A stretch of DNA of 32,000 nucleotides from Nitratidesulfovibrio vulgaris str. Hildenborough (GCF_000195755.1 NC_005863.1:1-32000); one strand, 5' to 3'. Positions 1 through 25,184 are shown, numbered from the stretch's first letter. Notes: generated by a model not told the origin, from the letters alone. Made by a program: numbers and translations.

Positions 1-649
1 CACAGCGGTGTGCCCCGCCGTCCCACCCTGTCGACCTGCCCTTACATGGGTTTGTGCTTTCATGATAGGCGGTTGTCCGATTTCACAGTGAACCACAGCG
101 CATGGTGTCTGTTCACGGCATGGCGCATCATGCCCAGACGCGCATGACGCGCCGGATTCACTCGCCCGCGGTGACCGCGCGAATGGCGTGCCTGCCAGCC
201 ACTCCTGTGAGGCGGCATCGGCAGCAGGCACAAGCGGCCCCCATGTCTCCGCCGTGTTGTGCGGGCATCCTGTAACAAGCTTGGAGGGCGATGGTCTGCG
301 GCACGATCCCAGCCGCGGCCTGGGAAGGGGCATCGGAGGGGCGTCGGCGCGCTGTACCGTGGCGATTTACAGAGACATCTCGGGCTGGCTGTCCGCCGAT
401 GAGCGAAGGTCCGCCGGCGACCCGTCAGCCACTCAAGGGTACTTCGCCCGGCGGGCATTCGGCACATCGGCCAGTCTCCCGGCTTGCAGGCACTTCGGCC
501 CGCCGGCTAGCCCCGGGCTGACTCGCCCACATGGGCACCGAGCCCTTCGCCAGCGCGAGGGCACGACCCGCCCGCCATCCGGGTACGGCTCCCCCTGTGA
601 CACCCCACCGGCAGCCTGCCCGCGCGGGATGATCGCTTCGGGAATCTAG
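1..649. other. GC-rich stretch with no credible coding frame; function unknown
   Basis: Only short overlapping ORFs (60-467 minus, 188-649 plus, 291-521 plus), with Arg/Pro/Gly/Ala-rich junk-like translations and no recognisable motifs. Contains imperfect hairpins, e.g. GTGAAC-N17-GTTCAC near 87-115 and GGCGCATCATG...CATGACGCGCC near 121-152. Confidence 0.3.
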
Positions 650-870
650 AAAATTTATAACCTGTCAAGAGGCGACAACTTTTACATTTTCTTCATGTTT
701 ACAGGACGTTGCAAGCGAAACACCCCTCCAATACGACGTCGTTCAGCGCAAACCGCAAGCGAATTCGTCTAAAAAAATGTTGATGGACAGAGTTTTTTTT
801 GATTAACCTGCTCGCATAACGCGAACGCCAAGCGTTACCTACATCTTTCCCGCAGAAGGGGGCCCGAAAC
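650..870 (+). promoter_or_regulatory. AT-rich parA upstream region with candidate operator repeats
   Basis: Sharp drop in GC directly upstream of parA. Direct repeats GCAAGCGAA at 711-719 and 756-764. Inverted repeat TAACGC-N9-GCGTTA at 817-837. Shine-Dalgarno AAGGGGG just before the ATG at 871. No promoter hexamers confidently assigned. Confidence 0.4.
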
Positions 871-1689
871 ATGGGTGCGATCATCGCCATCGTCAACAAC
901 AAAGGTGGGGTGGGCAAGACCACCATCACCACCAACCTTGCCCACGCGCTGGCAAACCTGCAACAGGAAGTGCTGGTCATCGACGCCGACTCGCAGTGCA
1001 ACACGAGTTCGTTCTTCTTTCACGGCGACGTCGAGCGCGTACCCGCACCCAACCTGTACGAATTGCTCGAAGACGACGCCGCGGACGTGCGCGACTGCAT
1101 CCACGCCGCGCCCGAATATTCGCGTATCGCCGTGCTGCCCACGCACCCCGACCTCGCCGGGCTGGAACCCGTCATCATCCAGCGTCCCGACACGGGCATA
1201 CGGCTCATGCGCGACAAGCTGCGCGACTATGCCAAGACCAAGTACGACTTCACGCTCATCGACTGCCCGCCCAACCTCGGCACCTTCGTCATGATGGCCA
1301 TGGTGGCGGCAGACTTCGTGCTGGTCCCGCTGGAAAGCGGCAGCAAATACTCCATCGACGGCATCGCCCGCACAGTGGGTCTCATCGACGACATCCGCTC
1401 CGAGGGCCAGAACAAGGACCTCACCCTGCTGCGCTTCCTGCTCAACAAGGCGCGGCCCCGCACCATCGTCGCCCGCGAGACACACGAGCGCCTGCGAGAA
1501 CGCTTCCCCGGTCGCGTGTTCGAGACCGTGCTTTCGGCCTCCACCGACCTGCAACAGAGCGAATACCTCAGCGAGACCGTCATTCGCAGCAAACCCAACA
1601 GCCAGCTTGCACGCCTGTTCCGCCAGCTGGCCAACGAGGTCGTGTCCCTGAAGGAGATAACCACCATGCAGGACGCGCCCTCTGCCTAG
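871..1689 (+). CDS. parA: ParA/Soj-family partition ATPase (deviant Walker A)
   Basis: N-terminus MGAIIAIVNNKGGVGKTTITTNLA is the KGGxGKT deviant Walker A. Also has the DxD-type motif VLVIDADSQ and Walker B FTLIDCPP. 272 aa with a good SD. Confidence 0.95.
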   Translation: MGAIIAIVNNKGGVGKTTITTNLAHALANLQQEVLVIDADSQCNTSSFFFHGDVERVPAPNLYELLEDDAADVRDCIHAAPEYSRIAVLPTHPDLAGLEPVIIQRPDTGIRLMRDKLRDYAKTKYDFTLIDCPPNLGTFVMMAMVAADFVLVPLESGSKYSIDGIARTVGLIDDIRSEGQNKDLTLLRFLLNKARPRTIVARETHERLRERFPGRVFETVLSASTDLQQSEYLSETVIRSKPNSQLARLFRQLANEVVSLKEITTMQDAPSA

Positions 1690-1739
1690 CCGACTAGACT
1701 TCCCTACCCTGCCCCCACCACGGGCGTGGAGGAACCGAT

Positions 1740-4700
1740 ATGCCCCCTGAAGCGACAGCCAACGCAAGCCCTGCCGGGCAACAACCGAAACGCAGGCGCG
1801 TTACGCTGGCAGACAGATTGCGTCAGGCCAGCAAGATGCAGTTCGAGTCGCCGGAACAGATTGCGGCCCGTGAAGCGCTGGAGAAGATGAACCGTGAGTC
1901 GGCACTGGCGACACCCGGTGACACCGACAGTCACGGGGTGTCTTCTGCTGTCACGCCTGACAAACCGACGACACACCAACACAAGGCCGTTGCCGAATCC
2001 GCGAAGGACGCCCCTTCGCCCCCCACCGTGACCAGCCCTTCCCCTGCCATAGAGGACGACCTCGGGCATGACACGTCGGCGGCCACGTCGGCGCGGGCAA
2101 GCACCGGTGAAGACGCCACCTGCGCCGCTTCTGGCACCACTCCCCGTGATGACGATGCCGGTCACCCCCTGACTGGCGCCGTCACCCGTGACGTCACCAC
2201 CCCAGAGACGCGTACTGTCACCCATGACACACCAGTCACCCCCGTGACAACAAAAGCCACGGGTGACTGCGATAGACACCCCGCGACAACAGCTGTCACC
2301 AGTGACACGGACTCCGAAACAGTGACCGCGACGGACACCAGTGACGCAAAACGTCACCCCGTGTCACCTGCGGCCACAGATGCCTCCAACAGTCACCCAG
2401 TGACGGCAGACGTCACCCCTGACGTCACCCCTGACAGCAACGCTCACCGGACGACAATGGCCGTCACTGGTGACAGCACGGTCACCCCCGACGGAGAACT
2501 CCCGGCTTCTTCAGCATCGACCCGCGAGCCCAAGACCGTGAGCAGCGCTGCCGACAGGGCATACACCGCCCCCCACGCCAGCCGGGGGAGGGACGCCGGA
2601 GACGACACCGGTCACCCCATGACAGACACCGTCACCAGTGACGGTACGTCACCCCCTCCTCCCCTATTCGTGCCCGCACATGGCCCACTGACGCACGGGG
2701 CGGTCGCGGCTACGGACACGGCAGGGGCAGCGACGGTCGAAGAAGGCCCTGCACACGACGTGCAGCCCATGCGGCAGGCTGAGGCATCGTCTGCGCCCCA
2801 TGCGTCGCGCGAAGCGCCCACAGGCACGGCGTACGCGGGCACAGAGGCAGGAAGTGCACACGGGCACGACCGCAGCACCGCGGGCCTTGCGACGACCGCA
2901 GAGGAAACGCCCTGCACGCCATGCGAAGCGCCAACCCCCGAGACGGCAGCCACACTGCATGACCGTTCCGCTGTGAACGCTCGCGCCATGGGGACGGAAA
3001 AGGTCACGGGGACAGAGAGAGTCACCCCTGACCCAACCGGTCACCCCGTGACCGCGGCAATCACCGTACGGCACGATGAAGGCCCCCTCCCCGGAGCTGA
3101 GACTCCGGGGGTATCTGGAGCAGAATCACCCCATGTGACGCCCCATGTGACGCCCCGAGTGACGCCCCGAGTGACGCCGGATGCGACGCAGGATGCGACG
3201 CCGGAGGCCTCTGGCAGTACATTGCCGGGTGCGACATCCGACCTGACGGGGGGCCTGACCGGGGGCCCGTCCGTGACAGCAGCGGGCGCAGAAGCAGACG
3301 CGGGCACAGAGACCGGCGCGCCGTATGCGCGGGCTGCCGCCTCCAAGGACCAGTCGGATGCGACACGCCCCGGAGATGACATCGCACCGTCACATGCCGC
3401 ACGGCAGGCAGCGGGTATCAGCGACGGCGCAACCACCGTCTCCGACGTCACCCCCCTGTCAGCCCACGACACGATGTCTTCTTTCGTCACGGATGACAGC
3501 CACGGTCACCCCATGACGGACAACGTCACCACTACCGAGCCTACCGTCCATCAGGCCATGGCCCATGGGATGGCTCCGGTGGTGAATAGCCCGAAGCCAG
3601 AGGGCGGTGTGCATGTGCGCAGCCCCCTCCCCGCCCACGACCTTGCCGGGCACATGGGGCACAGTGCCGAGCAAGCCCCCCAGACAGGGAACGTCACGGA
3701 TGACGCATCACGTCACGGGGTGTCGGCAGAAGTCACCCCTGACATGTCCGCCACGGCCCCAGTCACCCCAGTCACCCCAGTCATCCCAGTCAGGCCGGGC
3801 ACTCCGGGCCCGCTTGCAGGGCTGACCACATCGCGCACGCTTCTCAACAGCACCTTGCAGGTCAACATCTATAATATGGTGCTTGAGGCGGGCGGGGCCG
3901 TGTTCACCTCGGGCGGGCAGATGGCCAAGCGCTTCGACGTGGCCGTGCGTTCGGTGCGCCGTACCCTCGACCTCATGGAGACCAAGGGCATCCTCAGCCG
4001 CGAATCGGGGGCGGCGGGCATGACGCTGCGTCTGCTCATGGACCCCCTTTCGGTGATGGGCATCCATGCCAGCGGTCTGCCCGCAGGTGTCATCGGCGCG
4101 GTGCATGACGCCGGGGCAGTCCATGACGGCATCATGGGCGGGCACGCCCCATACCGGACGGGAAGAGGTCCGGACATGCCCACGTTCCCGTCGGGTTCGC
4201 CGGCGGCACACACGCCCGAATTTGTGGCAGGGCACGGCACGGGCGCGGAGGGCAGGGGAGGGTATCCCGCAGCGGGGATGCCGCAGCCCCATGCCCCGCA
4301 CCCTTCGCCGTCACCCCGTGACAGCTATGGTCACCCCTCGTTCATGCACGCCGCACCCCATCCGGTACAGACCTCCCCGCACCTGAACGACCAGCAGGGC
4401 AGGGCGGCGAACCCCGGCGACATGGTCGCGCCGCACAGGCCTGCCGCTGCCCATCAGATGCACGGCGGCATGGTGCCACGGCATCAGCCCGGGGCGACAC
4501 AGACGGGGCAGGCAGCGAGCGTGTCAGGTGCTGGCACACCGGGCACCACGGCGGGAGACGCCTTCGGAGTGCCGTCCGGCGGCCCCGGGGCGGACATGGC
4601 GTTCTTCCGCGAACGCTATCCCCATCTCGCCCGTGCGGGCTTCGGCCCGGCACAGGTGAAGCAGGTGCGTGAGGCACTGGCATCACGCGACCTGCCCGAC

Positions 4701-5135
4701 GACCTCGTGGAAGAGTCGCTCGGCTATGCCGAATGGGAACTCGAGCATGGCACCATGGTCGACGCCAAGGGACAGCCCATCGCCAAGCCCGCCGACTGGG
4801 TCTTCAAGTCGCTTGCCATGCACGGCTGCTACAGGCGGCCCGCCGGATACGTCGACCCGCTGGAAGAGGCCCGGGCGCGCATCGCCGAACGCATCGCCGC
4901 ACAGACGGCCCACCGCGAACAACTGGCGCGCCTGCGTGAAGAGCAGGAGAAGCTTGAGATGGAAGCCCTCATCGACGCGGAGGTTGAACGGCTTGCCGCA
5001 GCCCCCGACAGCGCAGAGGTGGACGAACTGTTGCAAGGGCTGCCCGCCGTGCTGCGCGCCAAGGGGCTTGAGAGCGCACTGGTACAGCGCGAGATGCGTC
5101 GCCGCCTGCGCGAACGTCTCTTCCCGGAGGGGTGA
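1740..5135 (+). CDS. Large (1131 aa) repeat-rich protein with a central MarR/GntR-like winged-helix segment and a C-terminal coiled coil; candidate centromere- or origin-binding partner of ParA
   Basis: SD GGAGGA lies 6 nt before the ATG, 50 nt after the parA stop. Basic N-terminal peptide QQPKRRRVTLADRLRQ. About 650 aa of V/T/P/D/H-rich low complexity with recurring GHP(V/M/L)T-xx-VT. wHTH-like segment QMAKRFDVAVRSVRRTLDLMETKGILSRE (nt ~3840-3990). P/H/G-rich linker. Ordered C-terminal domain (nt ~4600-5135) ending in an E/R/L-rich coiled coil. No ParB box seen. Whether the whole low-complexity part is translated is unproven. Confidence 0.7.
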   Translation: MPPEATANASPAGQQPKRRRVTLADRLRQASKMQFESPEQIAAREALEKMNRESALATPGDTDSHGVSSAVTPDKPTTHQHKAVAESAKDAPSPPTVTSPSPAIEDDLGHDTSAATSARASTGEDATCAASGTTPRDDDAGHPLTGAVTRDVTTPETRTVTHDTPVTPVTTKATGDCDRHPATTAVTSDTDSETVTATDTSDAKRHPVSPAATDASNSHPVTADVTPDVTPDSNAHRTTMAVTGDSTVTPDGELPASSASTREPKTVSSAADRAYTAPHASRGRDAGDDTGHPMTDTVTSDGTSPPPPLFVPAHGPLTHGAVAATDTAGAATVEEGPAHDVQPMRQAEASSAPHASREAPTGTAYAGTEAGSAHGHDRSTAGLATTAEETPCTPCEAPTPETAATLHDRSAVNARAMGTEKVTGTERVTPDPTGHPVTAAITVRHDEGPLPGAETPGVSGAESPHVTPHVTPRVTPRVTPDATQDATPEASGSTLPGATSDLTGGLTGGPSVTAAGAEADAGTETGAPYARAAASKDQSDATRPGDDIAPSHAARQAAGISDGATTVSDVTPLSAHDTMSSFVTDDSHGHPMTDNVTTTEPTVHQAMAHGMAPVVNSPKPEGGVHVRSPLPAHDLAGHMGHSAEQAPQTGNVTDDASRHGVSAEVTPDMSATAPVTPVTPVIPVRPGTPGPLAGLTTSRTLLNSTLQVNIYNMVLEAGGAVFTSGGQMAKRFDVAVRSVRRTLDLMETKGILSRESGAAGMTLRLLMDPLSVMGIHASGLPAGVIGAVHDAGAVHDGIMGGHAPYRTGRGPDMPTFPSGSPAAHTPEFVAGHGTGAEGRGGYPAAGMPQPHAPHPSPSPRDSYGHPSFMHAAPHPVQTSPHLNDQQGRAANPGDMVAPHRPAAAHQMHGGMVPRHQPGATQTGQAASVSGAGTPGTTAGDAFGVPSGGPGADMAFFRERYPHLARAGFGPAQVKQVREALASRDLPDDLVEESLGYAEWELEHGTMVDAKGQPIAKPADWVFKSLAMHGCYRRPAGYVDPLEEARARIAERIAAQTAHREQLARLREEQEKLEMEALIDAEVERLAAAPDSAEVDELLQGLPAVLRAKGLESALVQREMRRRLRERLFPEG
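1925..4340. repeat. Dense array of GTCAC/GTGAC-based motifs embedded in the large ORF, including 8 copies of a ~26-bp composite unit
   Basis: Composite GTCACCCC(N)TGAC-N7-GTCACC at 2161-2186, 2392-2417, 2611-2636, 3040-3065, 3505-3530, 3712-3737 and 4310-4335, plus a compact variant at 2353-2368. Also 12-bp tandem repeats (GTGACGCCCC-NN) at 3133-3200 and 9-bp tandem repeats (CAGTCACCC) at 3761-3795. Confidence 0.85.
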
Positions 5136-5180
5136 TGCGAGGGACGCGGGATGCCGGTGCCATGAGGGGTGGCAGACAGG

Positions 5181-5432
5181 ATGACAGGCAGGGTGACACC
5201 GTCGGTCACGGGGTGACAGACCAAGGATGACAGCGAGGGACACGGGGTGGTGACAGGTCACCTGACACGGGGCGACACCCCATGACAATCCGCCCCTCGA
5301 AACGTCACCGGTGACAGGACAGGGCCCGTGACGCGACACGTCCCCCATGACAGCGCATGTCGCGAGGTGACATGTGGAGCATCTGAAACAAAAACAATGG
5401 GTTGGGTACAAGCCCGTGACATGGGCGGTCAC
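5181..5432. repeat. Non-coding iteron-like array of GTGAC/GTCAC pentamers; candidate centromere or origin iterons
   Basis: Strict GTGAC or GTCAC at 5193, 5205, 5213, 5250, 5257, 5304, 5311, 5328, 5366, 5416 and 5428, plus ATGAC/CTGAC/GCGAC variants. Inverted copy of the 26-bp composite unit at 5192-5217. Palindromes GTCACGGGGTGAC (5205-5217) and GTCACCGGTGAC (5304-5315). My rough base-composition estimate is under 1 strict pentamer expected by chance in 250 nt. Confidence 0.6.
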
Positions 5433-5451
5433 CCCCCTCTTATATAAGGAA

Positions 5452-5479
5452 GATAGATAGAAAGAAGAGTCTATCTATC
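5452..5479. promoter_or_regulatory. Perfect 9-bp inverted repeat in an AT-rich patch just upstream of the HU-like gene; candidate operator or DNA-unwinding-adjacent element
   Basis: GATAGATAG (5452-5460), N10, CTATCTATC (5471-5479). Preceded by TATATAAGGAAG. The HU-like ATG is at 5490. Confidence 0.4.
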
Positions 5480-5489
5480 GCAGGAACAC

Positions 5490-5843
5490 ATGGAAAAGAC
5501 GAGCAAGCCGCAACTGGTGGCCTACCTGCGGGAAAGGGCACACCTCACGGAAGAGCAGGCGCTGATGACGCTCAAGGCCTTGTATCTCTTCTCGCTGGAG
5601 CATCTTGAGAAGGGCGTGGGCGTGGTGCTGCCCGACATCGGGCAAATCAAGCCATCCATGGGCAAGGGCGGGGTAGGGCGCAACTTCCGCACCGGAGAGG
5701 CGACGGTCATCGAACCCAAGCTCAAGCTCACGTTCAGTGCGTCCAAGGCACTGAAGGAACCGCTGGACGCGGCGCAGCGCAAGGCCGCGAAACAGCGCGA
5801 CGCGAAGTCGCAGGACGGCGCGACGGGCGACGGACGGGCGTAG
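5490..5843 (+). CDS. HU/IHF-family nucleoid-associated DNA-binding protein with a basic C-terminal tail
   Basis: 117 aa. The beta-arm signature GRNFRTGEATVIEPKLKLTFSASKALKE matches the GRNPxTGE...I pattern of HU/IHF proteins. N-terminal helical segment KPQLVAYLRERAHLTEEQA. Confidence 0.85.
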   Translation: MEKTSKPQLVAYLRERAHLTEEQALMTLKALYLFSLEHLEKGVGVVLPDIGQIKPSMGKGGVGRNFRTGEATVIEPKLKLTFSASKALKEPLDAAQRKAAKQRDAKSQDGATGDGRA

Positions 5844-6497
5844 CCACGACCGGACGGCTGGCTGCCGCCAGACATGGTGAGGCCCGGGTGCGCACGCGGG
5901 GCACGATGCCCGACACACGCAAGCCCGGTCATGCCTCCTCCCATGAAGCCCCGGAGGGGCATCGGCCCGAAGCCTCGCAGGTGAATATCAAGGTCACCCC
6001 CGATGCTTCGCGAGGTGACCCCGGCAGAGGGCGACCCGGTGGTGAAGACGTCCGGCCGGGGCGTGATGGTGGCGGTACGACGAAGGGTGATGACGCCCGG
6101 AAGAGGTTACCGGCGAGAAGGGCACGGATTACCGTCTTCCAGGCAGATGTCGCCCCTGCCGCACGGTCGCAGGGGCGGAAGCGGCAGACGTTGCGGGAAG
6201 GCGTACCTTCCGCCGCAAGACCGGAGAGGCTGGACCTCCATCGTCCGCCAGTCGCCACGCCGTGAGGTGTGGGCCGACCATGGGCACAGGCCTTGCGTTG
6301 CCGGAGGGCAGGGTCGCCTGTCTGCGGTGCTTCTGCCCGGGCAGACCGCGTGGCGCGCGAACCTGCGAAGCATGGGGTTCGCAGGTCCGCGGAGGGATGT
6401 TCCGGAGGGAAGCCGCTGACACGGGCGGCAGGGGGCTTATGCCCCGCGGCCCCGTCGATAGGGCGGGCCATGCCGCATCAGCCGGGGTCTGCTCGGG

Positions 6498-7418
6498 TCA
6501 GGGCCGCGCCGTCTTGCGTCTGACGACGAGTGTGCTGTGCCCGCTGCCACGCAGGATGTGTTCGGCGGTGCTCTTGAACAGCAGCCGCTGCAACACTCCG
6601 TGGTCATGCATGCCGACGATGGTGAGGTCGGCGCTGCACCCCTCTGCCGTCCCCATGATGGAGGCGGGCACGACGCCCCGTGGCAGGTGCGACCTGACGG
6701 TGACAGGGGCATCGCCATCCCTCTCCATGATGGCGGAAAGCCTTGCAAGGGCGTTATGAAGGTGCCCGCCGTGCCGCGAATACTCGTGCGCGGCGTGCGT
6801 GTTCGCCTCCTTCCGGGCGACGCCGCTCTTGGATGTGATCTTCATCCGGGCGAACACATCCCACGCATGCACCACGTGAAGCGTCGCGCTGTGACGTGTG
6901 GCGATGCCGTATGCGGCTTCGAGGATAGCCTCGTTGAGGCTCCTGTCCGAAGGCGAGTCGATGACGTCGTCACAGCCGATGGCCGCTACGATGTTGCGGA
7001 GGCTGTTCGTACCCTGCTTCAGGACGAGCACGTCGCCCTGCGCGCCATGGACGAAGTTCATGAATGTCTTCGTCTGGATGGGGTTCGCGAAGAGGTTCGC
7101 GTGGTGGTCGACGATGGTGAGGTCGTGTTGCCCCGGGCGCTGTGCAGACAGCCGGGAGAGCGTATCGGCACCGTCGGTCACGATGACGTCGTGACCTGCA
7201 CCGCAGCCCGTATCGTGGCCCTTGCCACGCCATGCCGGGGCCTCGGCGCGCCGCGCATCGGCCTCGCACGCCTGTTCCATGTCACGCCGGAGGGCGTCGT
7301 CGCACAGTATGGTGAGCGGTGCACCGAGTCTTCGCGCGAAGTCGATGGCGAAGAGGGCCCTGTGCCTGTCCGTGCCGGGGCCGGTCGCCCCGTAGAGTAT
7401 CCTGTCGTAGCAGCGCAT
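6498..7418 (-). CDS. Tandem-domain universal stress protein (UspA family)
   Basis: Two Usp-like halves. The C-terminal signature DLTIVGMHDHGVLQRLLFKSTAEHILRGSGHSTLVV matches the G-x2-G-x9-G(S/T) Usp ATP-binding pattern. ORF is open to GTG 7433, but SD GGAGG is best spaced for the ATG at 7418. Confidence 0.85.
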   Translation of the reverse strand: MRCYDRILYGATGPGTDRHRALFAIDFARRLGAPLTILCDDALRRDMEQACEADARRAEAPAWRGKGHDTGCGAGHDVIVTDGADTLSRLSAQRPGQHDLTIVDHHANLFANPIQTKTFMNFVHGAQGDVLVLKQGTNSLRNIVAAIGCDDVIDSPSDRSLNEAILEAAYGIATRHSATLHVVHAWDVFARMKITSKSGVARKEANTHAAHEYSRHGGHLHNALARLSAIMERDGDAPVTVRSHLPRGVVPASIMGTAEGCSADLTIVGMHDHGVLQRLLFKSTAEHILRGSGHSTLVVRRKTARP

Positions 7419-7455
7419 GCGCATCCTCCACACGCGAATGGGGTCGTGAATCAGG

Positions 7456-8451
7456 TCAGGTGCCGATGACGAACGTCGCCATGCCGAAGTAGATGAGGAT
7501 GGTGGAGATGTCGGACAGCGCCAGCGTGAGGGGGCCCGATGCGATGCGCATGTCCAGCTTCAGCTTGTGCAGCAGGGAAGGGATGCTGAGCCCCCAGAAG
7601 ACCCCGCAGCACAGCGTCAGCAGGATGCTCGAACCGATGACCGCCGATGCGGCGACATCGTCCCGCCACAGGACGACGATGCTGCCCACGATGAGCCAGC
7701 ACGCCGCCCCCAGAAGCACGGCGGAGCCCACTTCGCGGTAGAACGACTTCACATACCATTTCCAGTCCGGGTCGAGGGACCGCAGCGTGTGGATGGCGAG
7801 CGTCATGGACTGGATGCTCACACTCTCTCCGAGGCCCAGCACGAGGGTCATGAAGAAGGCCAGCACGAGACTCTGCGCCAGCGTCGCCTCATAGGCCCCC
7901 GCAAGGATGGCGCAGGTCGTGCCGCTGGCGATGGTGGCGAGAAGCCACGGGAATCGGTAGCGGAAGGCGCGCAGGGGCGAGGCCTCGCGCACCTGCAGGA
8001 TGCTGAGGCCGATGATCTCGAAGGCCCTGTGCATGTTCTCGCGGTCGGTGGCGTCGATGTCCTCTTTCGAGAACATGCCGATGTCCACCACACCGAGGAT
8101 GCGCCTCTCGTCATCCACCACGGGAAAGGCGAGCAACTTGTGGCGCGTGAAGTACTCATGCGCGTCGAGGACGCTGCAATCCATGGGGATTGCGATGGTC
8201 GAGGTGATCATGATGTCGTCGACCGTCTTCGTGTCGTCCGAGGTCAGAAGGCGTCTGATGGGAATGACGCCTGTCAGCCTGTCGTCGCAGTCGACGATGT
8301 AGAAGTAGTCGATGCGGTTCTCATCATCAGTCGATGACTTGATGTCGTGAAGTGCCTCTTTGATCGTCGTGCCCGAGACGAACTTCTTCACGTCTGTACG
8401 GGCGAGTCGCATGATGGATTCCTTGAAGAATCTGTTCTTCTTGCGTGGCAT
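7456..8451 (-). CDS. MgtE-like divalent cation transporter (CBS pair plus MgtE membrane domain; no MgtE N-domain)
   Basis: CBS-pair-like region (IKEALHDIK...YFYIVDCDDRLTGVIPIRRLL, ...LLAFPVVDDERRILGVVD) followed by the MgtE-type TM domain FRYRFPWLLATIASGTTCAILAGAYE...LVLGLGESVSIQS. SD GGAGGA lies upstream of the ATG at 8451; the longer ORF to 8535 lacks an SD. Confidence 0.85.
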   Translation of the reverse strand: MPRKKNRFFKESIMRLARTDVKKFVSGTTIKEALHDIKSSTDDENRIDYFYIVDCDDRLTGVIPIRRLLTSDDTKTVDDIMITSTIAIPMDCSVLDAHEYFTRHKLLAFPVVDDERRILGVVDIGMFSKEDIDATDRENMHRAFEIIGLSILQVREASPLRAFRYRFPWLLATIASGTTCAILAGAYEATLAQSLVLAFFMTLVLGLGESVSIQSMTLAIHTLRSLDPDWKWYVKSFYREVGSAVLLGAACWLIVGSIVVLWRDDVAASAVIGSSILLTLCCGVFWGLSIPSLLHKLKLDMRIASGPLTLALSDISTILIYFGMATFVIGT

Positions 8452-22629: not shown

Positions 22630-24444
22630 GTGTATCTTGGGTTTGATTCAAGATGGCCTTGCCTGAAGTATTTGCAATACCTAAATTTCTATGCCGCCAT
22701 TGCTGGCATGGTTAGCCTTGGAGGTAGTCTCATTTTTCAGCTCAATTTGTTTGAAGGATCACGAAACGTGGAGATTTCTGCTGCAGTGGATGCCCTGGCT
22801 TCACAAGGAGATGTAGAAACTCGCGGAGCGATTTTTACTCGGGAAGAAGTCGTTGACTTTATTCTTGATCTTGTTGGCTATAATGATGATCAAAATCTTT
22901 TTATGAAGCGTATTCTCGAACCTTCATTCGGAGGGGGCGACTTTATTTTTCGTATCATGGAAAGGCTTTTTCGTTCTTGGCGTAGTACTAAACCGTCTGA
23001 AAATGTAGTAGACGTTCTTGGAGATGCAATTAGAGGCTTTGAGATTCATCGAGACACATTTTTAGCAACTCATAGAGCTGTTATGTCTCGAATTGAGAAT
23101 GAAGGCTTTTCTTCATCTACTGCAAAGTGTTTAGCTGATCGTTGGCTCTCGAATGACGACTTTCTTCTTGCGCCACACTGTGGAAAATTTGAATTTGTTG
23201 TTGGTAATCCTCCATATGTGAGACAAGAGCTAATTCCGAATTTACTACTCAAAGAGTATCGTACTCGTTATCATACTATGTATGATAGGGCTGATATTTA
23301 TATCCCATTTATCGAGCACTCTTTGTCGTTGCTTACACGGAAGGGAAGCCTTGGTTTTATTTGTTCAGATCGGTGGATGAAGAACAGGTATGGTACTCTC
23401 CTGAGAAAATTGATAGCTGACAGGTTTAATTTGAAGTTTTATGTTGATATGGTTGGTACTCAAGCGTTTCAGAGCAGTGTTGTTGCATATCCCGCAATAA
23501 CTGTGATTAGTCGAGAAAAGCAGGTCGCGACTCGTGTAGCGCAACGTCCCTGTATTAGCAGGGCAGAGCTACGTAGTTTGGCTTCAGAGCTGACGGCAAA
23601 GCGTTTGCTAAAAGAATCGGTCTATCACGTACGTGAGCTTTCACACATCACAAAAGGGGGAGAACCATGGCTGTTTGAGTCTGCCGATAAAACGGCTTTA
23701 GTCCGTCGTCTTGAGCGGAGTTATCCGACACTTGAGGAAGCAGGCTGTAAGGTTGGGATTGGCGTTGCCACTGGGGCCGACAAGTCCTTTATCGGTAGAT
23801 TCGACGATCTTGATGTAGAACCCGACAGAAAGCTTCCTCTTGTCATGACCCAGGACATTGCATCCGGTGAGGTTAAATGGCGTGGTCTTGGGCTTGTTAA
23901 TCCATTCAACGACTCGGGTACTCTTGTTAACCTTCAAAAGTACCCGCGTTTGTCCCGCTATCTGCAAGAGCGGAAAGAGGTACTTGTTCGTCGGCACTGC
24001 GCTCAAAAAAACCCAACTAAATGGTATAAGACTATTGATAAGATTGTTCCGTCTTTGGCAAGCCAGGAAAAGTTACTCATTCCAGATATCAAAGGTAATG
24101 CTCATGTCGTTTACGAACAAGGTAGCTTGTACCCTCATCACAATTTATACTATGTAATTTCTTGTACATGGGACATCAGAGCTTTGCAGGCTGTGTTGTT
24201 GTCAGGAGTCGCCAAGCTTTTTGTTGAAGTATACTCAACAAAAATGCGAGGAGGGTTTTTGCGTTTCCAGGCACAGTATTTGAGGCGAATACGTATTCCA
24301 TTTTGGGAAGACGTTTCGCTTGGGCTACGTGAAGAACTTATAGTAGCTGCCAAGAGTAGAAATCTTGAGGCATGTAACGCAGCAGCCTATCGGCTTTATG
24401 CGTTGACAGGTGAGGAAAGGGCAGCAATCGAGGGGTTAGGCTAA
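22630..24444 (+). CDS. Gamma-class N6-adenine DNA methyltransferase (Eco57I/TaqI-like fold; candidate M.PaeR7I/M.XhoI-type enzyme)
   Basis: AdoMet motif [12 protein letters not shown] lies upstream of catalytic motif [11 protein letters not shown] (the gamma order). N-terminal [16 protein letters not shown] block. Long C-terminal target-recognition region. Start is uncertain: GTG 22630, ATG 22708, or GTG 22768 (preceded by GAAGGA). Confidence 0.9.
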
Positions 24445-25184
24445 TGTCATTGGACTTGGTGAATTATGAACGTAAAGTGTGTGAAGCTGTGCAGGCTTTT
24501 TGGAATAATCGTGCCTCAGCTCGCGAAAAGCAACTTGAATCTGGGAAGACAGATCAGGGAGAGCGCGCAGGTGTAACTGCAGGCAAGAATATGGATGGCT
24601 TTGTCGAGTTGGTACTTGATATTGTACGTGCAAATGGTCTTGCACATGCAGATATTCATCAGAATAAAGGGCTTCTCACGCTTCCTGGTTTTTTCCGGCC
24701 GACAAAACTATGGGATCTGTTGGTTATCTCTGAAGGGCAGTTGATAGCTGCTGTTGAGTTTAAAAGTCAAGTTGGACCGTCATTCGGTAATAATTTCAAC
24801 AACCGAGCAGAAGAAGCCATAGGTACGGCACATGATTTTTGGACGGCGTATAGGGATGGTGCTTTCGGTGAACAGCCCAGACCATTTATCGGGTGGCTTA
24901 TGTTGGTTGAAGATGCACCAGCGTCCCGTGCAGCTGTTCAGGAGTGTTCTCCCCACTTCCCTGTTTTTCTAGAGTTTAAGGGTGCATCATACATAAAAAG
25001 ATATGACATCCTTTGCCAAAAGCTTATGCATGAGAGGCTCTATACAACTGCCTCAGTTATAGCATCACCCAAGAATAATTGTCGCTTAGGTCAATATTCC
25101 TCTTTGTCTCCTATGACAAATATAAAAACGTTTGTAACGTCTCTTGCTGGCCATATTGCCGCCGAAGCCGCTCGGCTTTCTTAA
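24444..25184 (+). CDS. Type II restriction endonuclease, XhoI/PaeR7I-like (predicted CTCGAG specificity)
   Basis: 246 aa. The ATG overlaps the methylase TAA by 1 nt (TAATG). E-x-K-type catalytic candidate AVEFKSQ preceded by WDLLV. From memory, the methylase-then-246-codon-endonuclease order and size match the published PaeR7I system. The family call is unverified. Confidence 0.65.

What the first reader, a model, noticed from the sequence alone, without database searches (positions are those of the whole stretch)
1740..5135. ParA partner is a 1131-aa mostly disordered protein with a MarR-like winged helix instead of a ParB or RHH fold
The gene sits 50 nt after parA with a strong SD, the position where a centromere-binding protein is expected. 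Its parts are:
- a basic N-terminal peptide (KRRRVTLADRLRQ), which could act as a ParA-stimulating tail as in type Ib systems
- about 650 aa of V/T/P/D/H repeats
- a single wHTH-like segment (nt ~3840-3990)
- a P/H/G-rich linker
- a structured C-terminal domain with a coiled coil (nt ~4600-5135)

I see no ParB GxRR box, no HTH of the ParB type and no obvious RHH. It could instead be a Rep initiator, or a fused Rep/partition adaptor.
Basis: partly seen in the sequence, partly recalled or inferred. Interest (0 to 1): 0.7.

Follow-up and report, generated by a model that had tools for sequence, protein, structure and literature searches.

The report
ParA partner gene carrying its own binding sites
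The gene after parA on this Desulfovibrio megaplasmid encodes an unannotated type of ParA partner (a ParB-like basic tail, a long floppy tether, one winged helix and a C-terminal domain with no known fold), and the DNA coding for its floppy parts is an array of short repeats that are probably its own binding sites for plasmid segregation and perhaps also replication.

Summary
Window 1740-5135 is a real 1131-aa ORF, 50 nt after a Soj-like parA. The window is the start of the Nitratidesulfovibrio vulgaris pDV1-type megaplasmid.

GTCACCCC occurs 17 times in 2161-4337, all on the + strand and in all three reading frames. It recurs in both orientations in the non-coding spacer before the HU gene. 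The composite GTCACCCCNTGAC occurs nowhere else on the 202-kb plasmid.

An exhaustive search found 225 homologues, almost all in Desulfovibrionales, none named and none with a Pfam domain for the C-terminal domain (CTD). The shared plan is a basic N-terminal peptide, a repeat-encoded linker, a winged helix (wHTH), a second linker and the CTD. The CTD model (pLDDT 95) matches nothing in PDB or BFVD.

The basic peptide is present in 14 of 14 homologues that follow parA and in 0 of 9 that do not; the latter sit beside relaxase genes. Homologues carry their own plasmid-specific repeats, often with a 13-nt period, inside their linker-coding DNA.

Best reading: a new family of ParA adaptor and centromere-binding protein with its centromere embedded in its own gene. 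It may also be the replication initiator: no Rep is annotated on these plasmids and GC skew switches at this locus. No binding or function has been tested.

The parts
871..1689 (+). parA: small Walker-type (Soj-like, type Ib-sized) partition ATPase, 272 aa
   Evidence: Pfam AAA_31 E=6.8e-41 and CbiA E=1.3e-21. NCBIfam ParA_partition E=6.4e-33. The closest solved structures are a ParA family protein (8ray, E=3e-33) and T. thermophilus Soj (1wcv, E=7e-31).
1728..1733 (+). Shine-Dalgarno sequence GGAGGA, 6 nt before the ATG of the large ORF
   Evidence: Read directly from the sequence.
1740..5135 (+). ORF X, 1131 aa (WP_011176581 / AAS94445, annotated 'hypothetical protein')
   Evidence: ORF listing. 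100% identical to RCH1 pDEVAL01. The frame is kept in 12 strain variants despite 15 gap events.
1788..1826 (+). Basic N-terminal peptide KRRRVTLADRLRQ (aa 17-29), inside an N-terminal segment (aa 1-40) that is invariant between strains; proposed ParA-interaction and ATPase-stimulation motif
   Evidence: Zero variable columns in aa 1-40 across 12 variants, against 18.9 per 100 aa in the following linker. An equivalent peptide ([KR]2-4-x-[LI]-xx-L, or MALS[LM]xxKL[KR]QAA) is present in 14/14 ParA-linked homologues and absent from 9/9 unlinked ones.
1875..3839 (+). Linker 1 (aa 46-700): disordered low-complexity tether whose coding DNA carries the main repeat array
   Evidence: Amino-acid composition. 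Flat GC across codon positions. Near-neutral substitution pattern and in-frame indels.
2161..3778 (+). Array of 15 GTCACCCC words, all in + orientation and read in frames 0, 1 and 2. They are often part of the composite GTCACC(C)(C)-N-TGAC-N7-GTCACC, with cores spaced about 12 or 19-20 nt apart
   Evidence: 23 copies in the window against 2.1 expected, and 0 of 100 shuffles reach that number. Positions and frames. Repeat families D1-D8. Site matrix from 36 GTCACC sites.
3852..4055 (+). Single winged helix-turn-helix domain (aa 705-772), the presumed sequence-specific DNA-binding domain
   Evidence: AF2 pLDDT >95 with topology H-E-H-H-E-E. Foldseek matches to ArsR, CodY and MarR-type wHTH domains, E about 5e-3, TM about 0.55-0.62 normalised to the target. 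Weak Pfam HTH_11 and HTH_DeoR hits.
4065..4589 (+). Linker 2 (aa 776-950): G/A/P/H-rich and disordered
   Evidence: AF2 pLDDT 35-46. Amino-acid composition.
4310..4337 (+). Composite site GTCACCCCGTGAC-N7-GTCACCCC inside linker 2, read here as SPRDSYGHPS rather than the GHPxTxxVT reading it has in linker 1
4590..5120 (+). Conserved C-terminal domain (aa 951-1127): a helical bundle with a small hairpin, a 47-residue helix and three terminal helices. It is the most conserved part of the family (WPxLAxAGFG...AEWEL.HG.M.D..G.PV..P..WVF.SL...G.YRRP.GY)
   Evidence: Conserved region in 225 homologues. CTD-only AF2 model has mean pLDDT 95.0. No match in PDB (best E=2.2) or BFVD (best E=0.79). No Pfam or NCBIfam family.
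5167..5435 (.). Non-coding spacer array: the same GTCAC/GTGACA/TGACAG words in both orientations (for example GTCACCCCGTGAC on the - strand at 5205-5217), with an A-rich stretch at about 5376-5395
   Evidence: Sequence. Inverted-repeat pairs I4-I9 link this region to the sites inside the ORF. All 6 copies of GTCACCCCNTGAC on the 202-kb plasmid lie in this locus.
5452..5479 (.). Palindrome GATAGATAGA-N8-TCTATCTATC preceded by TTATATAAGG. It is conserved upstream of the HU gene in distant homologous loci with 49-59% GC
5490..5843 (+). HU/IHF-family DNA-binding protein gene, 117 aa. It follows X in 5 of the 21 related loci
   Evidence: Pfam Bac_DNA_binding E=5.4e-17. Synteny.

Best explanation
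ORF X is the ParA partner of the pDV1-type megaplasmid and belongs to a previously unnamed family largely confined to Desulfovibrionales.

Proposed mechanism:
1. The single winged helix binds the short repeated sites GTCACC(CC)-N-TGAC.
2. Those sites lie in arrays inside the DNA that codes for X's own disordered linkers, and in both orientations in the X-HU spacer. The gene therefore carries its own centromere.
3. The conserved C-terminal domain, with its long helix, dimerises or oligomerises the protein or contacts a conserved host factor.
4. The roughly 650-residue tether presents the basic N-terminal peptide to the Soj-like ParA, as ParB N-terminal peptides do, and so couples the plasmid to ParA-driven segregation.
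5. The low-complexity amino-acid sequence of the linkers is mainly a by-product of the DNA repeats. Selection keeps the frame open but hardly constrains the residues.

What is shown and what is inferred:
- Shown: the domain anatomy, the DNA-level nature and locus-specificity of the repeats, the family and its synteny, the covariation of the N-peptide with ParA, and conservation of the reading frame.
- Inferred: that X binds these repeats, that the peptide stimulates ParA, and the role of the CTD.
- Extension (my estimate about 0.4): the same protein and sites also act as initiator and iterons of the replicon, with the origin in or next to the X-HU spacer.
For: Partner role:
- X follows parA by 50 nt with a strong SD.
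- parA lies directly upstream of the X homologue in 11 of 21 related loci and in plasmids pDMC1, pDMC2 and pDRET01, with gaps of 3-50 nt.
- No ParB or RHH gene is annotated on the 202-kb plasmid.
- The basic N-terminal peptide is present in 14/14 ParA-linked and 0/9 unlinked homologues.
- Aa 1-40 are invariant among 12 strain variants while the adjacent linker is hypervariable.

DNA-level sites:
- GTCACCCC occurs 23 times in the window against 2.1 expected.
- Seventeen copies lie inside the ORF, in all three frames and in one orientation.
- The same words occur in both orientations in non-coding DNA at 5167-5435.
- All 6 copies of GTCACCCCNTGAC and 8 of 9 copies of GGTCACCCC on the whole plasmid are in this locus.
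- Homologues carry different, plasmid-specific words in the same two linker-coding positions, several with a 13-nt period that cannot arise from a protein repeat. In L004, L015, L018, L019 and L024 the words also fill the X-HU spacer.

Frame kept, residues not:
- 15 in-frame gap events among strain variants, and substitutions spread evenly over codon positions.

Possible Rep role:
- No annotated initiator on pDV1-type plasmids, pDMC1, pDMC2 or pDRET01.
- The cumulative GC-skew minimum is at the X-HU spacer and the maximum is roughly opposite, at about 116 kb.
- The spacer has repeats in both orientations around an A-rich stretch, next to an HU/IHF-family gene.
- The wHTH+CTD core without the N-peptide sits next to MobC/NikA plus relaxase, or relaxase-primase, in mobilisable elements, where a replication protein is commonly found.
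- Weak PHROG hits to the wHTH are mostly replication initiators.
Against: - There is no experimental evidence of any kind. DNA binding, ParA stimulation and even the existence of the full-length protein are untested, and I found no proteomic or transcript data for this gene.
- pDRET01 carries canonical ParA/ParG pairs in addition to ParA-X. A pure partition role would be redundant there.
- Depletion of substitutions in the motif cores is weak (1-2 observed against 6.6-6.9 expected) and biased by ascertainment.
- The absence of stop-creating substitutions is not significant (P=0.2).
- GC skew at the locus is partly produced by the C-rich ORF itself.
- The PLSDB gene tables are incomplete, so an unrecognised Rep may exist among the hypothetical proteins.
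- No DnaA box lies in the locus.
- The CTD is more conserved than a plain dimerisation domain needs to be. This fits a host-factor contact but does not say which.
Confidence: 0.55

Rival explanations
1. X is a centromere-binding adaptor only. It partitions the plasmid with ParA, and the replication initiator is a different, unrecognised gene or the host machinery.
For: All the partner evidence applies. Arrays of 10-17 short repeats with a 12-13-nt period look more like centromeres such as parC or tubC than like typical 17-22-bp iterons. Several 'hypothetical proteins' on the plasmid could hide a Rep. pDMC2 encodes another HTH protein and two DnaB-like C-terminal domain proteins.
Against: No Rep is recognised on six plasmid records (three pDV1-type, pDMC1, pDMC2, pDRET01). 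The skew minimum is at this locus. pDRET01 already has ParA/ParG systems. The wHTH+CTD core also occurs without ParA, next to relaxases. The strong conservation of the CTD is unexplained.
Confidence: 0.28
2. X is only the replication initiator. The repeats are iterons, with the origin in the X-HU spacer and extra copy-control iterons inside the gene, as in RepA_N plasmids and repC. ParA uses another, unidentified centromere-binding factor such as HU.
For: GC skew, absence of another Rep, spacer architecture, the mobilisable-element context and weak PHROG Rep hits. An origin inside the initiator gene has precedent in repC (PMC3155836, listed) and, from my own knowledge, in RepA_N plasmids.
Against: The exact covariation of the basic N-terminal peptide with an upstream parA (14/14 against 0/9) is hard to explain without a ParA contact. 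HU follows X in only 5 of 21 loci. X has a single wHTH and no Rep_3, RepA_N or TrfA signature.
Confidence: 0.1
3. The first ~650 codons are not translated into a functional protein. The real product starts at an internal start near the wHTH, and the upstream 2 kb is a non-coding repeat array that merely happens to be open.
For: GC is flat across codon positions and substitutions are evenly spread over the three codon positions in nt 1-1950. Most family members are only 350-450 aa. The T-poor composition lowers stop-codon frequency, and only 1.8% of single-base changes would create a stop.
Against: 15 gap events at 8 or more sites in 12 variants all keep the frame. The strong SD and ATG are at 1740. 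The invariant N-terminal 40 aa carry the family-wide ParA-linked motif, which is useful only if tethered in frame to the rest. All ParA-linked homologues likewise start directly after parA and read through their repeat arrays.
Confidence: 0.05
4. X is a transcriptional regulator or relaxosome/oriT accessory protein, and its position next to parA is incidental.
For: The wHTH is of the generic regulator type. Unlinked homologues sit beside MobC/NikA and relaxase genes.
Against: pDV1-type plasmids have no relaxase and are typed non-mobilisable. The tight parA-X operon is conserved across many plasmids. Dozens of clustered sites are unlike an operator or an oriT.
Confidence: 0.02

Closest known systems
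ParB/Spo0J N-terminal ParA-interacting peptide, and ParT of Streptomyces plasmid SCP2 (CTP-independent ParB-like protein, PMC12260392)
   Same: [quoted passage not shown] The partner is a Walker-type ParA. In ParT the parS site lies inside the parT coding sequence, and the N-peptide property tracks with a neighbouring parA. The motif here ([KR][KR]GLxxL in several homologues) resembles the LG(R/K)GL type.
   Different: X has no ParB HTH/M domain and no CTPase fold. DNA binding is by a winged helix. The CTD fold is unrelated to anything solved. Instead of one 18-bp parS there are dozens of short sites spread over about 2 kb of the gene.
TubR-tubC (type III partition; recalled from my own knowledge, not tested here)
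   Same: A winged-helix centromere-binding protein that coats an array of roughly 12-bp direct repeats.
   Different: TubR is a small protein that works with the tubulin-like GTPase TubZ. X is 1131 aa, works with a Walker ParA, and its array lies inside its own gene.
Type Ib centromere-binding proteins (ParG, omega; ribbon-helix-helix)
   Same: The gene lies directly after a small ParA. A flexible basic N-terminal tail is proposed to stimulate ParA. The centromere is made of many short repeats.
   Different: X has no RHH fold and is 10-15 times larger. Type Ib centromeres usually lie upstream of parA, not inside the partner gene.
RepA_N initiators (pAD1, pSK41) and RepC of repABC plasmids, whose origin or iterons lie inside the initiator gene
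   Same: Repeats or an origin embedded in a poorly conserved central part of the gene for the DNA-binding protein, plus a separate domain conserved within a narrow host range. For repC see PMC3155836; for RepA_N I rely on my own knowledge.
   Different: No sequence or profile similarity to RepA_N, Rep_3 or RepC. A replication function of X is not shown. X additionally carries a ParA-linked N-terminal peptide.
MarR/ArsR-type winged-helix regulators
   Same: The fold of aa 705-772 (Foldseek E about 5e-3, TM to target 0.55-0.62).
   Different: Only the bare wHTH is shared. There are no MarR dimerisation helices, no significant Pfam MarR hit for this protein, and the overall architecture and genomic role are different.

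Membership tests
ParB/Spo0J (type Ia centromere-binding protein) | ParB N-terminal CTPase domain (ParBc, GxxRxxA box) plus ParB-type HTH | tested here: not met
   No ParBc or ParB HTH hit in Pfam or NCBIfam at E<=1. The AF2 model shows only a wHTH and a helical CTD.
ParB/Spo0J (type Ia centromere-binding protein) | Unstructured basic N-terminal peptide that contacts ParA | tested here: met
   The peptide is present, invariant among strains, and covaries with an upstream parA (14/14 against 0/9). A physical interaction was not tested.
Type Ib RHH centromere-binding proteins (ParG/omega) | Small dimeric ribbon-helix-helix DNA-binding fold | tested here: not met
   No RHH family hit. The predicted DNA-binding domain is a wHTH. 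The protein is 1131 aa.
TubR (type III wHTH centromere-binding protein) | Winged-helix centromere-binding protein partnered with a TubZ GTPase | tested here: not met
   A wHTH is present, but the partner is a Walker-type ParA and no TubZ is annotated on the plasmid.
Iteron-binding Rep initiators (Rep_3/RepA/pi/TrfA) | Two tandem winged-helix domains (WH1-WH2) matching Rep family profiles | tested here: not met
   No Rep_3, TrfA or RepA hit. Only one of 41 family members hits RepL, at E=0.006. The model has a single wHTH.
Iteron-binding Rep initiators (Rep_3/RepA/pi/TrfA) | Supports autonomous replication from an adjacent iteron origin | not testable with these tools
   Only indirect hints exist: GC-skew minimum at the locus, no other annotated Rep, and the spacer architecture.
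RepA_N initiators | RepA_N N-terminal DNA-binding domain (Pfam RepA_N) | tested here: not met
   No hit in Pfam for X or for 41 homologues. Only the gene-internal position of the repeats is analogous.
MarR family regulators | MarR profile match, with the wHTH flanked by N- and C-terminal dimerisation helices | tested here: not met
   X has no MarR hit at E<=1. Five of 41 homologues hit MarR_2 weakly (best E=5e-4). Foldseek finds generic wHTH domains of ArsR, CodY and MarR proteins at E about 5e-3.
ParA/Soj Walker-type partition ATPase (the upstream gene) | Deviant Walker A motif KGGxGK[ST] and a ParA/MinD-type P-loop fold | tested here: met
   The sequence contains NKGGVGKTT. Pfam AAA_31 E=6.8e-41. 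The PDB sequence search finds a ParA family protein (8ray, E=3e-33) and T. thermophilus Soj (1wcv, E=7e-31).
New family defined here (N-peptide, repeat-encoded linker, wHTH, linker, CTD) | Conserved CTD motif WPxLAxAGFG...AEWEL.HG.M.D..G.PV..P..WVF.SL...G.YRRP.GY together with a preceding wHTH | tested here: met
   225 homologues at E<=1e-3, 122 at E<=1e-10. The top hits align over both the wHTH and the CTD.

The most novel reading that the evidence does not exclude
A single polypeptide is both replication initiator and ParA adaptor, and one set of repeats embedded in its own coding sequence serves as both iterons and centromere. In that case the long disordered linkers exist because DNA binding sites were overprinted on an open reading frame. 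The frame is selected to stay open so that the ParA-activating peptide remains tethered to the DNA-bound domain, while the residues themselves drift. The fold-orphan CTD would be the host-specific module that recruits the Desulfovibrionales replication machinery.
Probability: 0.3. Interest if true: 0.8.

Novelty: new variant of a known kind. Interest (0 to 1): 0.62.

Why it matters
D. vulgaris Hildenborough is the model sulfate reducer, yet the replication and segregation genes of its 202-kb nif/T3SS/CRISPR megaplasmid are unassigned. This locus is the only candidate.

If the reading is right, it defines a further class of ParA partner, alongside ParB, RHH proteins, TubR-type wHTH proteins and ParT. 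The class is largely confined to Desulfovibrionales and has a C-terminal domain with no known fold.

It also gives an unusually clear case of a centromere or iteron array overprinted on protein-coding DNA, which would explain a 650-residue 'disordered' region as a by-product of DNA sites.

In practice it points to a minimal replicon and stability cassette (about 640-5900 of the window) for building stable low-copy vectors for sulfate-reducing bacteria. It also supplies a marker for typing Desulfovibrionales plasmids, most of which current replicon schemes leave untyped: MOB-suite assigns no replicon to pDV1-type plasmids, pDMC1 or pDMC2.

Tried and rejected
- Pfam, NCBIfam and PHROGs on the full protein and on sub-regions gave only sub-threshold HTH hits. 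I did not run PADLOC.
- PDB sequence searches with the wHTH-to-CTD segment and with a CTD profile found nothing.
- Foldseek with the 462-aa model returned only generic wHTH proteins. With the CTD-only model nothing was significant in PDB or BFVD.
- The first word-indexed homologue search was swamped by the low-complexity linker and found only a frameshifted strain variant. The exhaustive HMMER search was needed.
- A second word-indexed search with the CTD profile returned only short unnamed ORFs.
- Searching the literature for DVUA0002 and DVUA0003 gave one table entry, which lists DVUA0002 as ParA, and nothing on this gene. I found no proteomic or transcript evidence.
- No DnaA box lies in the locus.
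- The sigma-70 and terminator scan gave nothing informative apart from flagging the GATAGATAGA palindrome.
- I considered and rejected the idea that the repeats are protein repeats. The same words occur in three frames, in a different frame in linker 2, in non-coding DNA in both orientations, and with a 13-nt period in homologues.
- I considered HU as the true ParA partner and rejected it, because it is present in only 5 of 21 loci.
- I tested whether strain substitutions avoid the motif cores. The trend is in the expected direction but weak and biased by ascertainment.

Full report
IDENTITY OF THE WINDOW. Window 700-6000 is 100% identical to Nitratidesulfovibrio (Desulfovibrio) vulgaris RCH1 plasmid pDEVAL01. 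It is about 97.5% identical to the plasmids of strains DP4 and L2. The three records annotate the same genes: a ParA family protein, a 1115-1131-aa 'hypothetical protein' (WP_011176581 in RCH1 and Hildenborough) and an HU family protein. The window is therefore the start of the pDV1-type 202-kb megaplasmid, which also carries nif, exopolysaccharide, T3SS and CRISPR genes.

CHECK OF THE OBSERVATION. The ORF runs 1740-5135 (+) and encodes 1131 aa.
- It starts 50 nt after parA (871-1689) and has GGAGGA 6 nt before the ATG.
- ParA is a small Soj-like Walker ATPase: Pfam AAA_31 E=6.8e-41, closest solved structures 8ray (a ParA family protein) and T. thermophilus Soj.
- No Pfam, NCBIfam or PHROG family reaches significance for the large protein. 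Only weak HTH hits appear at aa 714-769.
- AlphaFold2 with a 41-sequence family alignment gives two confident domains, each with pLDDT >95. One is a winged helix at aa 705-772. The other is a helical C-terminal domain (CTD) at aa 951-1127 containing a 47-residue helix.
- The 175 residues between the two domains are predicted to be disordered.
- Aa 46-700 were not modelled, but contain only 6% L/I/F/W/Y/M.

IS THE WHOLE ORF REAL? Two observations point in opposite directions.
- Against constraint on the residues: in the first ~550 codons GC content is the same at all three codon positions (0.65/0.65/0.68). Neighbouring genes, and the last 450 codons of this ORF, show the usual high-GC3, low-GC2 pattern. 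Between strains, nt 1-1950 carry 60-63 substitutions spread evenly over codon positions (19/21/23). The remaining 1446 nt carry 9-17 substitutions, almost none at position 2.
- For a maintained frame: all five indels among the three plasmid sequences are multiples of three. The 90%-identity cluster holds 12 full-length variants of 1111-1131 aa. These differ by 15 gap events at 8 or more sites, yet all read through to the same C-terminus.
- Variation per 100 aa is 0 in aa 1-40, 18.9 in linker 1, 2.4 in the wHTH, 7.4 in linker 2 and 1.1 in the CTD.
The frame is therefore kept open and the extreme N-terminus is conserved, but the linker residues drift almost freely. The absence of stop-creating substitutions is not significant on its own (P=0.2).

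THE 'REPEATS' ARE DNA SITES.
- The octamer GTCACCCC occurs 23 times in the window against 2.1 expected, and none of 100 shuffles reaches that number.
- Seventeen copies lie in 2161-4337, all on the + strand. Relative to the ORF, nine are in frame 0 (read V-T-P), six in frame 1 (read G-H-P) and two in frame 2.
- The sites often form a composite, GTCACC(C)(C)-N-TGAC-N7-GTCACC. GTCAC-CCC-GTGAC is itself a near-palindrome.
- One composite, at 4310-4337 in linker 2, is read in a different frame from those in linker 1.
- The non-coding spacer between the ORF and the HU gene (5136-5489) is full of the same words in both orientations. One example is GTCACCCCGTGAC on the minus strand at 5205-5217.
- On the complete 202-kb plasmid, all 6 copies of GTCACCCCNTGAC and 8 of 9 copies of GGTCACCCC fall in this locus.
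A protein repeat cannot explain identical words in three frames, in both orientations and in non-coding DNA. Substitutions between strains tend to avoid the GTCAC/GTGAC cores (1-2 observed against 6.6-6.9 expected), but this test is weak and biased by ascertainment.

THE FAMILY.
- A word-indexed search was swamped by the low-complexity linker.
- An exhaustive HMMER search with aa 670-1131 found 225 homologues at E<=1e-3 and 122 at E<=1e-10. Most are 350-450 aa.
- The alignment shows a common plan: a basic N-terminal peptide, a variable low-complexity linker, a wHTH, a second linker and a strongly conserved CTD (WPxLAxAGFG...AEWEL.HG.M.D..G.PV..P..WVF.SL...G.YRRP.GY).
- The pDV1 protein is the longest member because linker 1 is about 650 aa rather than about 100-250 aa.
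- No member has a Pfam or NCBIfam domain for the CTD. The wHTH gives only scattered weak hits to many HTH families.
- Every name in the source databases is 'hypothetical protein'.
- The CTD-only model (pLDDT 95.0) has no significant match in PDB (best E=2.2) or BFVD (best E=0.79).
- The 20 loci found among species-representative genomes are nearly all Desulfovibrionaceae: Desulfovibrio, Solidesulfovibrio, Bilophila and Mailhella.
- Plasmid hits are pDMC1 and pDMC2 of S. magneticus, a S. carbinolicus plasmid, pDRET01 of Desulfohalobium and a Desulfobaculum plasmid.

CONTEXT AND THE N-TERMINAL PEPTIDE.
- A parA gene lies directly upstream of the X homologue in 11 of 21 loci and in pDMC1, pDMC2 and pDRET01, with gaps of 3-50 nt. 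An HU gene follows in 5 loci.
- The other homologues have no parA nearby. They sit next to NikA/MobC-like and MobA/VirD2 relaxase genes (L012, L021) or relaxase-RepB-primase fusions (L005, L007) in what look like mobilisable elements.
- The basic N-terminal peptide takes two forms: [KR]2-4-x-[LI]-xx-L, or MALS[LM]xxKL[KR]QAA.
- It is present in all 14 ParA-linked proteins. Examples are KRRRVTLADRL (pDV1), RRRGLNELM, RKGISSLLS, KKRRSLYDTL and HKRKSLKSLL. L011 needs a frameshift correction inside its repeat array for the peptide to be in frame.
- It is absent from all 9 unlinked proteins.
[quoted passage not shown] The same linked-versus-unlinked comparison was used for ParT of SCP2 (PMC12260392).
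This covariation is the strongest evidence that X is the ParA partner.

GENE-EMBEDDED REPEAT ARRAYS ARE A FAMILY TRAIT.
- In L004, a 49% GC contig with the same parA-X-HU order, the linker reads 'SHxMTxxVTxD'. Its DNA carries AAAAGTCA(C/T) and TGACA words, which also fill the X-HU spacer in both orientations.
- Other ParA-linked homologues carry their own words in the two linker-coding segments that flank the wHTH-coding segment:
  - CGGACAA, 14 copies (L008)
  - AACGCCT, 13 copies with a 24-nt period (L010)
  - CAGCAGACAAACT with a 13-nt period, plus inverted copies (L011)
  - GAGCACCCGAA(T/C)C with a 13-nt period (L014)
  - (A)TGTCCGGGG with a 13-nt period, both in the ORF and in the X-HU spacer (L018, L024)
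- A 13-nt period inside an ORF is read in all three frames, so it must be selected, or at least generated, at the DNA level.
- The X-HU spacers share one layout: site arrays in both orientations, an A-rich stretch, two or three more sites, and then a conserved palindrome (GATAGATAGA...TCTATCTATC in pDV1, L004, L018 and L024; a related AGAAAGAGAGAAAG...CTCTTTCTCTC in L015 and L019) just before the HU gene.

MECHANISM. The anatomy fits a centromere-binding adaptor.
- The wHTH reads the repeated sites.
- The CTD dimerises or oligomerises the protein, or contacts a host factor.
- The long tether presents the N-terminal peptide to DNA-bound ParA-ATP.
- The centromere is the gene itself together with the downstream spacer.
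All binding steps are inferred; none has been tested.

Several observations suggest that the protein may also be the replication initiator.
- No Rep, primase or helicase is annotated on pDV1-type plasmids, pDMC1 or pDRET01. pDMC2 has only two DnaB-like C-terminal domain proteins and one further HTH protein.
- Cumulative GC skew has its minimum at the X-HU spacer and its maximum near 116 kb, roughly opposite.
- pDRET01 already has ParA/ParG pairs.
- The wHTH+CTD core occurs without ParA beside relaxase genes.
- The weak PHROG hits to the wHTH are mostly replication initiators.
- The CTD is far more conserved than the wHTH, and the family is largely confined to one bacterial order. That would suit a host-specific contact.
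Against the Rep idea: the protein has a single wHTH rather than the two of classical iteron initiators, no DnaA box lies in the locus, the PLSDB gene tables are incomplete, and the skew is partly created by the C-rich ORF itself. I put the partner role at about 0.8-0.85 and the added initiator role at about 0.4.

COMPARISON WITH KNOWN SYSTEMS.
- It works like a ParB-type adaptor (basic N-peptide, flexible tether, DNA-binding domain, C-terminal domain), but it fails the ParB membership test because it has no ParBc/CTPase domain and no ParB HTH.
- It is not an RHH type Ib protein.
- It shares the 'winged helix on an array of short repeats' idea with TubR, but its partner is a Walker ATPase rather than TubZ.
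- A centromere inside the partner's own gene has a precedent in ParT/parS of SCP2. An origin or iterons inside the initiator gene has precedents in repC (PMC3155836) and, from my own knowledge, in RepA_N plasmids. None of those proteins is related in sequence to X.
- 'MarR-like' is justified only as 'generic winged helix'.

NOVELTY AND VERDICT. The kind of system, a ParA partner with a repeat centromere, is known. The following appear to be undescribed: the protein family, the fold-orphan CTD, the systematic overprinting of site arrays on linker-coding DNA, and the possible fusion of initiator and adaptor roles. No database or paper available here names the family. I classify the finding as a new variant of a known kind, with interest 0.62. 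The main limitation is that every functional statement rests on sequence, synteny and predicted structure.

Noticed in passing
window 5452-5479 (also L004 ~5250-5290, L018 ~5845-5885, L024 ~3305-3340): A 10-bp-arm palindrome, GATAGATAGA-N8-TCTATCTATC, lies just upstream of the HU gene, preceded by TTATAT. It is conserved in plasmids of 49-67% GC whose site repeats differ, so it is probably read by a conserved factor, possibly the HU-like protein itself or a host protein. L015 and L019 have a related AGAAAGAGAGAAAG...CTCTTTCTCTC element.
   Followed up: partly
window 5490-5843: The plasmid-borne HU/IHF-family protein is 117 aa and has a basic C-terminal extension. An HU gene follows the X gene in 5 of 21 related loci. 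Its role (origin bending, centromere architecture or autoregulation) is unknown.
   Followed up: partly
window ~22768-25184: A low-GC island (0.45-0.50 against about 0.67) coincides with the Eco57I-type methylase and PaeR7I-type restriction endonuclease genes of the RCH1 annotation. It is probably horizontally acquired. This restriction system (DVUA0020) is the one a published study suggests may explain the higher transformability of the plasmid-free strain JW801.
   Followed up: partly
window 1-870: About 640 nt of GC-rich sequence with no convincing gene is followed by an AT-rich stretch (640-800) in front of parA. GTGACACCCC at 597-606 resembles the locus repeats. On the plasmid, a HipBA toxin-antitoxin pair lies just upstream of the window start.
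   Followed up: no
P0001 (JGI metagenome), aligned to window ~4230-4400: A metagenomic strain variant carries a frameshift in linker 2 that would remove the CTD. The alternative frame reads RHPVTAMVTP across the 4310-4337 composite site. This may be a sequencing error or a real truncation.
   Followed up: no
L011 5127-5330: The N-terminal peptide (MALSLAEKLKQAAAARLAE) is in a different frame from the rest of the X homologue. The shift falls inside the 13-nt repeat array, so it is either an assembly error or slippage-prone repeats.
   Followed up: partly
L030 (pDRET01) 661-7847: A 45-kb Desulfohalobium plasmid carries ParA-X plus a canonical ParA/ParG pair and a further parG. MOB-suite assigns it rep_cluster_1544, although no Rep is annotated. 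Which gene that cluster refers to could not be determined.
   Followed up: no
proteins P0178-P0213: Many metagenomic ORFs of about 100-175 aa consist of the CTD alone. They may be stand-alone CTD proteins, or fragments produced by frameshifts or mis-called starts in repeat-rich genes.
   Followed up: no
L029 (pDMC2) 2303-5169: The 8.9-kb plasmid with ParA-X also encodes an HTH-domain protein and two small DnaB-like helicase C-terminal domain proteins. These may be replication accessory factors and bear on whether X is the initiator.
   Followed up: no
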